A stretch of 18,079 bases of DNA from Octopus sinensis (taxonomy: Eukaryota), in contig NW_021824525.1 in the NCBI RefSeq assembly GCF_006345805.1, forward strand, positions 1 through 18,079, in the 5' to 3' direction. The notes under the pieces are model-generated. The model did no database searches. It saw only the letters and a program-made list of their open reading frames with translations, and was not told the origin of the DNA. Position 1 is the first letter of the stretch, and each line of letters opens with the position of its first letter. Positions 1,591-17,726 of the stretch are shown here, piece after piece. The translations under genes were made by a program, and so were the position numbers.

Positions 1591-1698
1591 CGAGGGCGAG
1601 TCAAAAGTAATGCCACTTTGTTTAGGATAGGTATAATTACCAACACCGGAACATACATCATACATCAAAATGAAGTTGGTCGTCTGTGGATCACATCC

Positions 1699-1890
1699 CT
1701 ATTTCTCAACATAGTCACCGTTTCTCTCAATAGCAATGTTCCACCATCGAATAAGAGCATGTATCCGTGTCCCGTAAAATTCTGTTAACTTTTCTTTGAG
1801 CCACTTCTTCACAACAGTTTTCACTACCTCGTCGCTGGAATAATGTTTGCCTCTCAAAGCTTCTTTCATGGGGTCGAAGAGATGATAGTC
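1699..1890 (-). pseudogene. mariner transposase C-terminal fragment
   Basis: DYHLFDPMKEALRGKHYSSDEVVKTVVKKWLKE...FY..RIHALIRWWNIAIERNGDYVEK* is the canonical mariner C-terminus that follows the YSPDLAPSDYHLF motif. Confidence 0.92.
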
Positions 1891-1905
1891 CAGTGACGGT
1901 GATAG

Positions 1906-2034
1906 TCCAGTGACGAGGAAGTGAAAACTGTTATGAAGAAGTGGCTCAAAGAACGGGGCAGGGATAGGATACATGCTCGCATTCGAAGGTGGAACATTAC
2001 AAAAGAGAGAAACGGTGGCTATGTTGAGAAGTGA
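1906..2034 (+). pseudogene. second (inverted) copy of mariner transposase C-terminus
   Basis: SSDEEVKTVMKKWLKERGRDRIHARIRRWNITKERNGGYVEK*, 4 codons shorter than the left arm. Confidence 0.88.
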
Positions 2035-2143
2035 AGACGTGATCCACAGAGGACCAGCTTCATTTTGATATATGATATATGTTTCTATGGTGGTAAGTAT
2101 ACCTGTCCTAAACAAAATGGCATTACTTTTTGACTCACCCTCG

Positions 2144-2489
<346 letters not shown>

Positions 2490-3900: not shown

Positions 3901-4237
3901 TATATGTACCTTTCTTTTGCTGGGCTCAATTTTCACTTGCAGACCCATGAAAAACGAACCTCCAATAACTACTCTGCCTATTTATCTGTGTACACTTTTC
4001 ATATTGTGTATACCATAAGATCTGCAAATCTAACGGAGGCCTCAAAAGACATTTTAAGATCCACAAAGATCAGAACTTAACTGCAGCTCTTGGTGGTCCA
4101 AATTAGATATGCAGTCTGTGTGGGTGTCTTTTCAATACGTTGTCTGCTTTAAAAAGCCACTTCAGATGCCATGATGGATCTAAGTTGTAGGTACATAAGG
4201 TAATCAGACTCTGCATAAGGAGTAGACAACCGCCATA
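3901..4237 (+). mobile_element. decayed 3' end of a LINE (probably RTE clade) ORF with three C2H2 zinc-finger remnants, short 3' UTR and (TA)n tail
   Basis: Finger remnants are YLSFAGLNFHLQTH (3907-3948), YCVYHKICKSNGGLKRHFKIH (4002-4064) and a perfect CSLCGCLFNTLSALKSHFRCH (4110-4172). There is a frameshift near 4000, an in-frame TAG at 4104, a stop at 4188-4190 and a small ACTCT..GGAGT hairpin in the UTR. Confidence 0.7.
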
Positions 4238-4469: not shown

Positions 4470-5103
4470 TATATAATACAGGAAAAAGGACATCAAAAAC
4501 CAAGTTAGGACGAGTATCTCAAGTCATTTAAAATATTTAATTAAAGTAATGTCAATTTGAGGTAATTAATTAGTTAACTAATCAATTAACTATTGGATGT
4601 CTTACAGCTGTTTCTGGAACATCCCATGTGATAGGTTAGCATCTCCATACACTGGGTATTTCATCAGAGACAAGGAGAGTATGTATGAAAGTTCAAGACA
4701 CGGAATTCACAGTTTATAAAGGAATAAAATGGTAGATAGAAGAATACAGACAGGAGAATAACGTTCACGCCTAATCTTCTTCCAGATAGTATGGAAGTTG
4801 GTCCGTACTTCTGTGAAGGTCCTTAAGTATAATCTTAGGTAAATCCAGGCTATATTTTGGTAGTATTTCGAATGTTACGTTTATACTAAAGGAGTAGATC
4901 AAGTGGTTAGCTAACCCAGTGTATGGAGATGCTAACTTATCACTTGAGGTATCCCAGATACAGCTGCAAGACATCCAATAGTTAATTAATAAGTTAAGTT
5001 ATTAATTAATTACCTCAGATTCACCTTACTCTAATTAAATATTCTAAACGACTTGAAATACCCGTCCTGCTTTGGTTTTCGTTGTCCTTTTCCCTCTTAT
5101 ATA
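4470..5103. mobile_element. Penelope-like element remnant with ~190-bp inverted pseudo-LTRs
   Basis: 4470-4657 is the reverse complement of 4914-5103 (about 80% by eye). The right arm is truncated inside the hammerhead, and both outer ends abut TATA tracts. Confidence 0.75.
4598..4672 (-). ncRNA. type I hammerhead ribozyme motif (canonical core, imperfect stem II base)
   Basis: Minus strand reads UGUCU-CUGAUGA-[46-nt stem II]-GAAAC-AGCU-GUA-AGACA. Helix I is UGUCU/AGACA and helix III is the palindrome ACAGCUGU. Confidence 0.75.
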
Positions 5104-5162
5104 TATGTACATATATATATTTGTGTGTGTTTGTGTGTATGTGTGTGTATACATACATACAT

Positions 5163-5203
<41 letters not shown>

Positions 5204-5206
<3 letters not shown>

Positions 5207-5398
5207 GAAAGTTTACGAAAATAAACAAAAAACGAAGGCAGGTGGAGTACAAACAAACAAATGTATTAGTATAGCGCTCAGGAATTGATAAAGTCTTTTA
5301 CGTTTCGAGCCTACGCTCTTCGACAGAAAGATACACAGAAAAAACAAGGAGAGAAACAAGGAGAGAAAAAATGCGTGTAGTAGCTAACGATCTATCAT
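5204..5398 (-). mobile_element. ~190-bp dispersed repeat with hammerhead-like motif (PLE-derived/retrozyme-like)
   Basis: Full-length homology to 17050-17237 (+), with the same 5' start ATGATAGATCGTTAGC and the same 3' end at (TA)n. Confidence 0.8.
5294..5331 (-). ncRNA. minimal hammerhead-like motif with variant core CUGUCGA
   Basis: UCUUU-CUGUCGA-A-GAGC(GUAG)GCUC-GAAAC-GUA-AAAGA. Helix I and stem II are perfect; helix III is the palindromic ACGU. Confidence 0.6.
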
Positions 5399-6160
5399 GT
5401 ATGCATATATGTCTATATACATACATACATACATACATACATACATACATACATACATAACATACATACATACATGTGTGTGTGGGGGGTCTGCATGGGA
5501 TTGCAGTTCAATTAAAAGGACACGGGAAAAGAATTTGAACATGATCTGCATGAAAACGAAATAGTAAATCATGCTAAAAGATTTAAATTAATAAAAGATG
5601 GAAACTTAATTAAAATCAAATTAATAAAAAAAATAGCATGTATATAGCTCACTGGCGAGTGATCTTAATTTTACACCTCTGAAAGGCGGTCAACTAGTAT
5701 AATCTTTACATTGTTGGGAAAATCTTTTGCGGTTCTTTTGCAATGCATTTGCATTTTGATTTCAAATCCTGTACATATAGGCTTTCGAGTTTTATAAAAA
5801 TACATCCCATTCATATATTAGGTTATATTCAGTGAATATAGATTTTGTACAAATCTAAGGCCTTTTGTCGATACAATGAATCGATGACACGCTTTTCTGT
5901 TATGGCCATGTATTGAAGCAGAATTGACGCATTAAATGTTTAACCTATTTTTGTAAGTAGCTATATGGATTTATACTGAAACAGATGGTACTGAGTCATG
6001 TCAATAAAATAGCAATCCTATACAGCTCTGAATAACTGAGGCCCATTGCTCTTACGCCTAGGATTCTCGTGCTGTGTCTGTCACAATCCTCGTAGACCTC
6101 ATCTGAAATAAAGCCATCTAGCTTGTTGGCAAAGACTCAGTAGCACTCACATTTCATAAC

Positions 6161-6595: not shown

Positions 6596-6982
6596 GGCTG
6601 TGTGGTAAGTAGCTTGCTTACCAATTACATGGTTCCAGGTTCAGTCCCACTGCGTGGCACCTTGGGCAAGTGTCTTCTACTATAGCCTCGGGCCGACCAA
6701 AGCCTTGTGAGTGGATTTTGTAGACGGAAACTGAAAGAAGCCCGTCGTATATATGTATATATATGTATGTGTGTATATGTTTGTGTGTCTGTGTTTGTCC
6801 CCCTAACATCGCTTGACAACCGATGCTGATGTGTTTACATCCCCGTAACTTAGCAGCTCGGTAAAAGAGACCGATAGAATAAGTACTAGGCTTACAAAGT
6901 CCTGGGGTCGATTTGCTCGACTAAAGGCGGTGCTCCAGCATGGCTGAAGTCAAATGACTGAAACAAGTAAAAGAGTAAAAGA
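6596..6982 (+). mobile_element. SINE family A, near full length
   Basis: A-box-like GGCTGTGTGGT, B box GGTTCAGTCCC, CORE-like CACCTTGGGCAAGTG, internal (TA)/(TG) tract and GTAAAAGAGTAAAAGA tail. Many homologues occur in the window. Confidence 0.95.
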
Positions 6983-12716: not shown

Positions 12717-12940
12717 TGGTTCCGGGTTCAGTCCCACTGCGTGTCACAATGAGCAAGTGTCTTCTACTATAGCCTCGGGCCGTCCCCGTAATTAGCGGTT
12801 CGGTAAAATAGACCGATAGAATAAGTACTAGGCTTACAAAGAATAAGTCCTGGGGTCGATTTGCTCGACTAAATGCGGTGCTCCAGCATGGCCGCAGTCA
12901 AATGACTGACACAATTAAAAGAGTAAAACAACAAAAGAGT
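12717..12940 (+). mobile_element. SINE family A, 5'-truncated, large internal deletion at ~12782
   Basis: GCCTCGGGCCG is joined directly to TCCCCGTAA. Confidence 0.9.
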
Positions 12941-12952
12941 ATATATATGTAT

Positions 12953-13288
12953 AACCACATGGTTCCGGGATCAGTCACACTGCGCGGCACCTTGGGCAGG
13001 AGTCTTCTACTATAGCTTCGGGCCAACCAAAGCCTTGTGAGTGGATTTGGTGAACGGAAACTGAAAGAAAACCCTCGTATATATGCATATACTTGTCTGT
13101 ATGTGTCTCTGTTTCTCCCTGTGCCTTGCTTGACAACCGATGCTGGTGTGTTTATGTCCCCGTAACTGAGCGGTTCGGCAAAAAAAGACCGGTAGAATAA
13201 GTACTAGGCTTACAAAGAATAAGTTCTGGGGTTGATTTCTTCGACTAAAACCGTTTATAACTGAGCTCCAGCATGGCTGCAGTCAATG
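12953..13288 (+). mobile_element. SINE family A, 5'-truncated
   Basis: Aligns to 6620-6957. Confidence 0.92.
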
Positions 13289-13969: not shown

Positions 13970-14125
13970 GGATGTGTGGTAAGTAGCTTGCTTACCAACC
14001 ACATTGTTCCGGGTTTAGTTCCACAGCGTGGCACCATGGGCAAGTGTCTTCTACTATAGCCTCAGGCCGACCAAAACATTGTGAGTGGATTTGGCAGACG
14101 GAAACTGAAAGGAGCCCGTCGTATA
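13970..14125 (+). mobile_element. SINE family A 5' half, running into microsatellite (to ~14293)
   Basis: Aligns to 6596-6750. Confidence 0.9.
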
Positions 14126-14500: not shown

Positions 14501-14932
14501 TTTTTTACTTTTATTTTAAAACTGTTTCACTCATTAGACTACGGCCATGCTGAAGCAAGGCCTTGAAGAAATTTTAGTCGAATGATTCGACCTCAGTACT
14601 ATATTTTGTTAAGCCGGCTACTACTCATCCGCTCTCTTTTGCCGAACCGCTACGTTACGGAGACGTAAACACACCAACACTAGTTGTCAAAGTGGTTTGG
14701 GAACAGATGCAGACGCAAAGACAGGCCAGCACACACACCACACACACACACACACACACGTACACATGAAAGGGCTTCTTTCAGTTTCTGTTTACCAAAT
14801 CCACTCACGAGGCTTTGCTCAACCCGAGGATATAGTAGAAGACATTTGCCCAAGGTGCTGTATAATAGGAATGAATCTGGAACCTCGTGGTTAGGAATCA
14901 AACTCCTTACCACAGAGCCATGCCTTGCACCT
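14501..14932 (-). mobile_element. SINE family A, older full-length copy
   Basis: Reverse-complement match to both the head and the tail of family A. Confidence 0.88.
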
Positions 14933-16569: not shown

Positions 16570-16800
16570 TGTTAAGGGATTTCTCTCTTAACATGAAACT
16601 AATGGTAGCCTTAACCCATAAGTAAATTTTATCCACCAAATAAACACTCATTTTCATTGCTTTTCTTGAATTTTTTCCTTCTCTGAACCTTTCCTTTCTT
16701 CTATTTCTGGCGAAGACCTCGGCTCGAAGCGTAAAAAACTCTTTTTTCCACCTTTACTTAACGTCAAGCAAATACAATCCATGTTTTTAATGCTCGATCT
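16570..16800 (+). mobile_element. old PLE-like repeat with decayed hammerhead-like motif (16704-16737)
   Basis: UUU-CUGGCGA-A-GACC(UCG)GCUC-GAAGC-GUA-AAAA; the downstream sequence resembles 17149-17190. Confidence 0.5.
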
Positions 16801-17049: not shown

Positions 17050-17237
17050 ATGATAGATCGTTAGCCACTACACACATTTTTTTCTCTCCTTGTCTCTCTC
17101 CGTGTTTTTTTCTGTGTCCCTTTTTGTAGAAGAGCGAAACGTAAAAGACTTTTTCAATTCCTGAGCGTTGTATAATACATCTGTTTGTTTTGTACACCAC
17201 CTGTCTTCGTCTTTTGTTTTTTTCGTAAACTCTCCCT
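17050..17237 (+). mobile_element. ~190-bp dispersed repeat (second copy), hammerhead stem II deleted
   Basis: Homologous to 5204-5398. TTGTAGAAGAGCG|AAACGTAAAAGAC lacks TAGGCTCG. Confidence 0.8.
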
Positions 17238-17349
17238 AATATATATATATATTATATATATATATATTATATATATATTATATATATATATTATATTTAT
17301 ATGTATGTATGTACGAATGCATATATGTATTTATGTATATATATATATG

Positions 17350-17394: not shown

Positions 17395-17726
17395 CTTCTT
17401 TTTACTTGTTTCAGTCATTTGACTGCGGCCATGCTGGAGTACCACCTTTAGTCGAGCAAATCGACACCAGGACTTATTCTTTGTAAGCCTAGTACTTATT
17501 CTATCGGTCTTTGGGCCGAACCGCTAAGTTTCGGGGACGTAATCACACCACTATCGGTTGTCAAGCGATGTTGGGGTACAAACACAGACAAACGTCTACC
17601 AAATCCACCCACAAGGCTTTGGTCGGCCCGAGGTTATAGTAGAGTACTCTTGCCCAAGGTGCCAAGCAGTGGGACTGAGCCCAGAACCATGTGGTTGGTA
17701 AGCAAGCTACTTATCACGCAGCCACT
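17395..17726 (-). mobile_element. SINE family A, internal microsatellite deleted
   Basis: Reverse-complement match; ACACAGACAAAC is joined to GTCTACCAAATCC. Confidence 0.92.

What the first reader, a model, noticed from the sequence alone, without database searches (positions are those of the whole stretch)
5294..5331. Minimal hammerhead family with a non-canonical core (A6 replaced)
Helix I, stem II, GAAAC and GUA are perfect, but the core reads CUGUCGA rather than CUGANGA. The sister copy at 17124-17130 also has U at this position (UUGUAGA), and the more distant relative at 16707-16713 has G (CUGGCGA). The U shared by two independent insertions suggests the variant was present in the actively amplifying master element. 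That would mean either a natural A6U hammerhead variant or a ribozyme fold retained for a non-catalytic role such as RT recognition. Helix III is only the palindrome ACGU, implying dimeric folding.
Basis: partly seen in the sequence, partly recalled or inferred. Interest (0 to 1): 0.78.

Follow-up and report, generated by a model that had tools for sequence, protein, structure and literature searches.

The report
Hammerhead variant fixed in Neptune retrotransposon
A Penelope-type jumping gene with over 13,000 matching copies in this animal genome (likely an octopus) carries a hammerhead-shaped RNA motif in which one core letter that is normally A is U in about 97% of copies while the rest of the motif stays conserved; it likely works as a slowed, protein-helped self-cutting RNA (cutting untested) and would let one test whether these elements need to cut their RNA at all.

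Summary
The motif is real (minus strand 5294-5331) and U6 is a family trait, not decay. It lies in the tail (pLTR) of a 5'-truncated Neptune-type Penelope-like retrotransposon. Genome-wide, 12,899 of 13,349 exact matches have U6. Copies fetched without using the core give 90 of 102. Young tandem copies with a long RT-GIY-YIG frame carry U6 in both pLTRs, and runs of four other organism labels show 98-99% U6. Across five U6 subfamilies only 2 of 36 motif columns differ (positions 7 and 17, which hammerheads allow to vary), against 51 of 127 flank columns, so the motif stayed under selection after A6 was lost. Sister families in the same genome keep A6 on the same scaffold. Corrections: the 17124 copy lacks stem II; the 16707 copy is a decayed A6-family member, so its G is uninformative; the palindromic helix III and dimer folding are standard for these elements. 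Cleavage is untested. Best reading: a slowed, dimeric, protein-assisted ribozyme (0.5); rival: a non-cutting fold kept for protein binding (0.3). I found no natural A6U report in the library, but the main paper on small Penelope hammerheads was not held.

The parts
5204..5400 (-). 5'-truncated tail (pLTR end, 197 nt) of a Neptune-type Penelope-like retrotransposon, C7 subfamily
   Evidence: 39 other genomic copies at 93-97% identity among 40 scored of 3,120 candidates; longer copies of the family carry a GIY-YIG frame upstream
5294..5331 (-). minimal type I hammerhead motif with U6 core (helix I 5 bp, extra A, stem II GAGC/GCUC with GUAG loop, ACGU palindrome)
   Evidence: sequence; pattern counts
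5323..5323 (-). core position 6 = U (A in canonical hammerheads)
   Evidence: 12,899 of 13,349 exact genome matches; 90 of 102 core-blind copies
5298..5299 (-). predicted cleavage site after GUA (position 17); cutting untested
   Evidence: hammerhead numbering; position 17 is A or U in all five subfamily majorities
5171..5203 (.). (TA)n microsatellite at which the element's 3' end lies (likely insertion target)
   Evidence: the 3' ends of most family copies run into (TA)n
17051..17238 (+). second copy of the U6 family (A7 subfamily), decayed: C3U and an 8-nt deletion removing stem II
16674..16785 (+). decayed copy of the A6 sister family (3-nt loop II); its G6 is likely an A-to-G mutation

Best explanation
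The motif is the minimal hammerhead of a Neptune-type Penelope-like retrotransposon whose lineage fixed U in place of core A6 and kept the rest of the motif, and it likely acts as a slowed, dimer-forming, protein-assisted self-cleaving RNA (cutting untested). Shown: U6 is fixed across five subfamilies up to the youngest, both pLTRs of tandem copies carry it, and only positions 7 and 17 differ between subfamilies. Inferred: two motifs of a tandem transcript (about 4.3-4.5 kb apart) pair through ACGU/ACGU; the element's RT-endonuclease protein would help folding, as shown for the anole element; U6 would lower the rate. Inferred, least certain: a slow cutter would be tolerated or favoured because the motif lies about 125 nt upstream of where copies end and reverse transcription likely starts, so fast cutting would separate that site from the coding part, and the upstream motif lies about 750 nt before the start codon.
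For: 12,899 of 13,349 exact matches U6. Core-blind retrieval: U 90, C 8, A 3, G 1 of 102. U6 at 97.8-99.4% of contig depth in runs of organisms B-E laid on a natural A6 copy, where position 7 shows all four letters and the only other letter listed at position 17 (1% threshold) is T. 2 of 36 motif columns vary among five subfamilies against 51 of 127 flank columns, Fisher p 3.5e-5. C3-G8, U4, G5, A9, G12, A13, A14 and A15.1-U16.1 are all kept. Helix I has a C-G/G-C swap between the U6 and A6 families. A natural A6C variant keeps low, Mn2+-preferring activity (PMC3088659 section 8; PMC7151607). The anole element's hammerhead cuts only with its protein (PMC11167929).
Against: No cleavage data. 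In a published pairwise scan all CUGA-turn mutants except the C3-G8 swap had low activity and none was rescued (PMC9901934, passages). Anole hammerhead cleavage was dispensable for insertion in vitro and no RNA ends were found at its cut site (PMC11167929). No pile-up of copy 5' ends at the cut site, though the A6 family shows none either, so that test does not discriminate. Stem II and the GUAG loop are frozen in sequence, with no covariation, which catalysis alone does not require. The NUH argument rests on two states in five related subfamilies. The subfamilies form a ladder, so the columns in the Fisher test are not fully independent.
Confidence: 0.5

Rival explanations
1. The U6 motif no longer cuts; the fold and sequence are kept as a binding or dimerisation element for the retrotransposon protein near the start of reverse transcription.
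For: Position-6 changes lower activity strongly (PMC3088659, PMC7151607, PMC9901934). Stem II is identical even in A6 sister families whose 3' flanks differ at 34-41 of about 90 columns, which suggests sequence-specific recognition. C6 is enriched in the oldest subfamily (6 of 27 against 9 of 216 at other T positions, p 0.003), as if position 6 were released. Naiad elements spread without hammerheads (PMC8557442, passages).
Against: Every other catalytic base is kept over 20-50% flank divergence, and the two columns that vary are the two that an active core tolerates (chance 1 in 630 for exactly these, 0.024 if the four loop bases also count as free). In the anole element the minimal template lay downstream of the core (PMC11167929).
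Confidence: 0.3
2. The 36 bases are held by a primary-sequence constraint unrelated to the RNA fold (pLTR promoter element or splice acceptor after the pyrimidine tract), and U6 serves or is neutral to that.
For: The motif follows a long pyrimidine tract; stem II shows no covariation; pLTRs hold the promoter, and in Drosophila Penelope an intron ends at helix I (PMC6765202, PMC4209133).
Against: An AG directly after U6 exists only in the A7 subfamily. The pattern of free and fixed positions and the helix I pair swap follow the hammerhead structure. No splice joint was listed in the one guessed-RNA run laid (contigs only, weak).
Confidence: 0.13
3. U6 is plain decay of a useless ribozyme, either in these copies or hitchhiking in one master.
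For: Hammerhead cleavage may be dispensable (PMC11167929, PMC8557442); the window's second and third copies are decayed.
Against: U6 is the majority letter in all five subfamilies and in 19 of 19 young copies; the rest of the motif did not drift while the flanks did.
Confidence: 0.04

Closest known systems
Minimal type I hammerheads (min-HHR) of metazoan Penelope-like elements (Cervera and de la Pena 2014, PMC4209133)
   Same: Position in the pLTR, short helix I, extra nucleotide between 9 and 10.1, G10.1-C11.1, palindromic helix III remnant, two copies per tandem element. The Acropora Neptune motif there has a near-identical scaffold.
   Different: All 56 representatives in its Fig. S3 have A6 (the search descriptor required the core, so U6 families would have been missed). 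The core variant reported there is U3-A8.
Natural A6C hammerhead of phage Bcep176 (Perreault 2011, PMC3088659; Naghdi 2020, PMC7151607)
   Same: Natural pyrimidine at core position 6 with the rest of the core intact.
   Different: C rather than U; a single phage sequence, against more than 12,000 copies kept through successive retrotransposon subfamilies; activity measured there, not here.
Anole Poseidon element PAc hammerhead (Frangieh 2024, PMC11167929)
   Same: pLTR hammerhead a short way upstream of an internal reverse-transcription start.
   Different: Poseidon clade; its motif overlaps the start codon, and its start site is not homologous to the target. Here the motif lies about 750 nt before the ATG, and the element's own UA tract matches the (TA)n target.
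Neptune clade of endonuclease-bearing Penelope-like elements (PMC8557442)
   Same: One frame with RT then a CxxxxCxxC linker then a C-terminal GIY-YIG; partial tandems; microsatellite targets.
   Different: Placement by motif only; no tree with named Neptune or Nematis proteins was built.

Membership tests
Penelope-like elements (EN+) | single ORF with RT and C-terminal GIY-YIG endonuclease | tested here: met
   L124 holds a 1,009-codon stop-free frame with RVT_1 (E 1.3e-7, above cut-off) and GIY-YIG (E 0.008, below cut-off); Atlas neighbours at 0.98 carry the same domains; one frameshift near codon 88 in that copy
Penelope-like elements (EN+) | partial tandem structure with pLTRs | tested here: met
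   3 of 21 long loci (L123, L124, L130) have 96-98% identical pLTRs with a motif in each, 4,336-4,508 nt apart
Penelope-like elements (EN+) | RT groups with telomerase RT in a phylogeny | not tested
   no reference proteins at hand; the PDB sequence search gave 0 hits
Neptune clade | CX2-5CxxC linker between RT and endonuclease; microsatellite targeting | tested here: met
   CSRPRCRTC before IIYCISC...YIGQT; 3' ends in (TA)n. Nematis shares the linker, so the clade name is not settled
minimal PLE hammerhead | helix I, stem II with G10.1-C11.1, extra nucleotide 9a, palindromic 15.2-16.2 | tested here: met
hammerhead ribozyme (canonical core) | CUGANGA with A at position 6 | tested here: not met
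   U6 in 96.6% of 13,349 matches
hammerhead ribozyme (canonical core) | remaining core bases C3, U4, G5, G8, A9, G12, A13, A14, A15.1-U16.1 and H17 | tested here: met
   majority letters in all five subfamilies
hammerhead ribozyme (canonical core) | self-cleavage after NUH | not testable with these tools
   only assembled contigs were offered, no raw RNA reads; copy-end test uninformative
non-LTR retrozymes | short non-coding tandem repeats with a hammerhead per unit | tested here: not met
   dispersed 5'-truncated tails of a coding element; no tandem array of the unit in the window

The most novel reading that the evidence does not exclude
A retrotransposon lineage has run for roughly 20 million years on a hammerhead that lacks a supposedly essential core base: either a natural A6U ribozyme whose missing contact is supplied by the element's own protein or a different metal, or a ribozyme turned into a non-cutting protein-binding fold. 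The A6 sister families in the same genome are the matched control.
Probability: 0.4. Interest if true: 0.72.

Novelty: new variant of a known kind. Interest (0 to 1): 0.55.

Why it matters
What hammerheads do in Penelope-like elements is an open question. A successful, recently mobile lineage that fixed a change at a core base while keeping the rest, beside sister families with the normal base on the same scaffold, is a ready-made natural comparison. If U6 cuts, the accepted core is too strict and descriptor searches miss whole families; if it does not, the fold has a second, non-catalytic job.

Tried and rejected
Rfam scans: no hammerhead hit in the 81-nt stretch; the whole-window list (150 of 240 rows shown) was dominated by microsatellite/miRNA artefacts. 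Single-strand folding is not better than shuffles, and unconstrained cofolding of two copies did not give the hammerhead dimer. Copy 5' ends at the cut site: by my hand tally about 20 of the first 100 of 116 listed U6-family rows start within 0-2 bases of the site (about 4-5 possible positions), against about 4 per position at neighbouring positions, so no excess; the A6 family showed about 8-10 of the first 100 of 122 rows, also no pile-up. RNA: no RNA holder listed on record, contigs only. One search was uninformative because position 7, known to vary, was not listed either; it was redone on an A6 copy. A C6 sub-lineage in the old subfamily was not supported by the tree or by linked flank sites. 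No match to the family pattern in metagenome contigs. No PDB sequence relative. The frame of the A6 sister family was not recovered beyond one 57-residue piece at 61% identity, so no protein tree. A-to-I editing was considered and dropped: it cannot turn U into A (own knowledge). Lunse et al. 2017 (PMC5785218) was not held.

Full report
Observation. The motif lies on the minus strand. From 5331 to 5294 it reads helix I (UCUUU), core CUGUCGA, one extra A, stem II GAGC/GUAG/GCUC, GAAAC, GU, A17, helix I (AAAGA). It is a single match in the window, with none in 200 shuffles. It folds no better than shuffles (z -0.34) and Rfam does not see it. Of the two other copies named, 17124 has U6 but has lost stem II by an 8-nt deletion, and 16707 belongs to a sister family with A6.

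Genome. The window is contig C996 of a 2.72-Gb assembly in 13,516 contigs. That it is an octopus is my inference from size and repeat landscape, recalled, not named by any search.

U6 is a family trait. A 29-place pattern with positions 6 and 7 free has 13,349 exact matches (reversed control 0); with position 6 not T it has 450, so 12,899 (96.6%) have U6. Among the first 100 non-U rows I counted 69 C, 22 A and 9 G, and the A6 copies on the GUAG scaffold sit on the flanks of different U6 subfamilies, as scattered later mutations would. Position 7 takes all four letters: U 12, A 9, C 6, G 3 in 30 loci taken in chromosome order. To avoid selecting on the core I fetched copies with the 3' flank only (29 each after dropping the self-hit) or with the coding region (19). 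Four of these 106 had no mappable motif; the other 102 give U 90, C 8, A 3, G 1. Contigs of four runs labelled organisms B, C, D and E, laid on a natural A6 copy so that any bias favours A, read T at position 6 at 99.4, 98.6, 97.8 and 99.2% of depth; position 7 again shows all letters and position 17 only A or T at the 1% threshold.

The element. Longer copies lead upstream through a pyrimidine-rich spacer into a GIY-YIG frame. In 21 long loci, three are partial tandems with 96-98% identical pLTRs and a U6 motif in each, 4,336-4,508 nt apart. L124 has a 1,009-codon stop-free frame with RT, a CxxxxCxxC linker and GIY-YIG, and one frameshift near codon 88. These young copies were chosen as the best matches of one copy and differ by 0.7% from their majority. 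The C7, G7 and old subfamilies also have the endonuclease upstream. This is the anatomy of a Neptune-type Penelope-like element (PMC8557442, passages); the window copy is a 197-nt 5'-truncated tail ending in (TA)n.

Selection after the change. Majority letters of five U6 subfamilies (young U7, C7, A7, G7, old U7) differ at 2 of 36 motif columns, positions 7 and 17, against 22 of 40 columns in the 5' flank and 29 of 87 in the 3' flank (Fisher p 3.5e-5). Caveats: the A7 group (9 copies) was pattern-selected, the subfamilies form a ladder, and the flanks are low in complexity. Old-subfamily copies differ 7% from their majority (biased low); on the calibration in PMC13282606 (0.065 = 18 million years; passages) that is on the order of 20 million years, if it applies. 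Sister families with the same core and stem II but a 3-nt loop have 3,909 exact matches, 97 of the first 100 with A6. On a flank-only tree of 64 rows they lie outside all U6 copies (100/100, midpoint root). With A6 in all 56 published representatives, U6 is the derived state. Helix I shows one C-G/G-C swap between the U6 and A6 families; stem II never varies (covariation score reached by 9 of 500 shuffles, which is weak for related sequences).

How it likely works. Shown: architecture, fixation, conservation pattern. From the literature: minimal PLE hammerheads cut weakly and as dimers (PMC4209133, parts 1-2 of 4 and supplement file 2 parts 1-2 of 3; file 1 not searchable). A natural A6C variant loses one or two hydrogen bonds, cuts slowly and prefers Mn2+ (PMC3088659, section 8 and passages; PMC7151607, parts 1-2 of 4). 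CUGA-turn mutants have low activity and are not rescued by second changes (PMC9901934, passages). The anole element's hammerhead cuts only with its protein, and cutting is not needed for insertion in vitro (PMC11167929, parts 1-2 of 4). Inferred: the two motifs of a tandem transcript pair through ACGU, the protein assists, and U6 slows cutting. The cut site is about 125 nt upstream of the common 3' end, where the element's own RNA carries a short UA tract matching the (TA)n target, so fast cutting would separate the likely priming site from the coding part. I give this 0.5, a non-cutting binding fold 0.3, a primary-sequence constraint 0.13 and decay 0.04.

Against my reading. Nothing here shows cleavage. 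Copy 5' ends do not pile up at the cut site, but neither do those of the A6 family. Stem II and the GUAG loop are frozen in sequence, which points to recognition by something other than catalysis. C6 is enriched in the oldest subfamily (6 of 27, p 0.003) without forming a clade. No revertant A6 subfamily spread: the 280 A6 matches with a 4-nt loop compare with 16,322 for a similar pattern with position 6 free. So U6 may be tolerated rather than favoured.

Novelty. Searches of the held library: hammerhead + A6U gave 3 papers, 2 listed, neither on this by title or abstract start (listing only); hammerhead + CUGUNGA gave 0; searches showed no U6 family in their listings; the 11 text supplements of PMC3088659 had no hit for A6U or U6 cores (its figures may be images). 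Lunse et al. 2017, the large survey of small Penelope hammerheads, was not held; its text and supplement could already contain such families. Also seen: PMC6765202, PMC12192606, PMC11014351 (passages) and bioRxiv 10.64898/2026.07.22.740005 (part 1 of 5). Verdict: a new core variant of a known kind of motif, real and well supported as sequence, untested as a ribozyme. Interest 0.55.

Noticed in passing
L123, L124, L130 (upstream pLTR end; L124 about 3960-3972): The element's own sequence has a short TA tract exactly where all copies end in (TA)n, suggesting that reverse transcription starts internally at a target-matching UA tract, unlike the non-homologous start reported for the anole element.
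   Followed up: partly
old subfamily, L201-L229: C at position 6 in 6 of 27 copies, more than at other T positions (p 0.003), but no linked flank sites.
   Followed up: partly
genome-wide; L140-L169: Sister families with canonical A6 and a 3-nt loop II on the same stem II, 3,909 exact matches: a matched control for assays.
   Followed up: partly
L012 and L002: A further minimal hammerhead-like family with a longer stem II and A6.
   Followed up: no
window 1592-2144: Element with 164-nt inverted arms (85% complementary) flanked by TA, resembling a non-autonomous Tc1/mariner-type MITE (label recalled).
   Followed up: no
window 4470-5105: Inverted arms of 123 nt (80% complementary) 390 nt apart, next to the same microsatellite as the finding; likely another MITE.
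   Followed up: no
window 6596-6743, 12810-13069, 13970-14100, 14772-14919, 17400-17723: Several dispersed copies of a SINE-like repeat in both orientations (label recalled).
   Followed up: no
G000:C18:4.30-5.38 Mb: Eleven near-identical altered A6-family copies clustered on one contig, likely segmental duplication.
   Followed up: no
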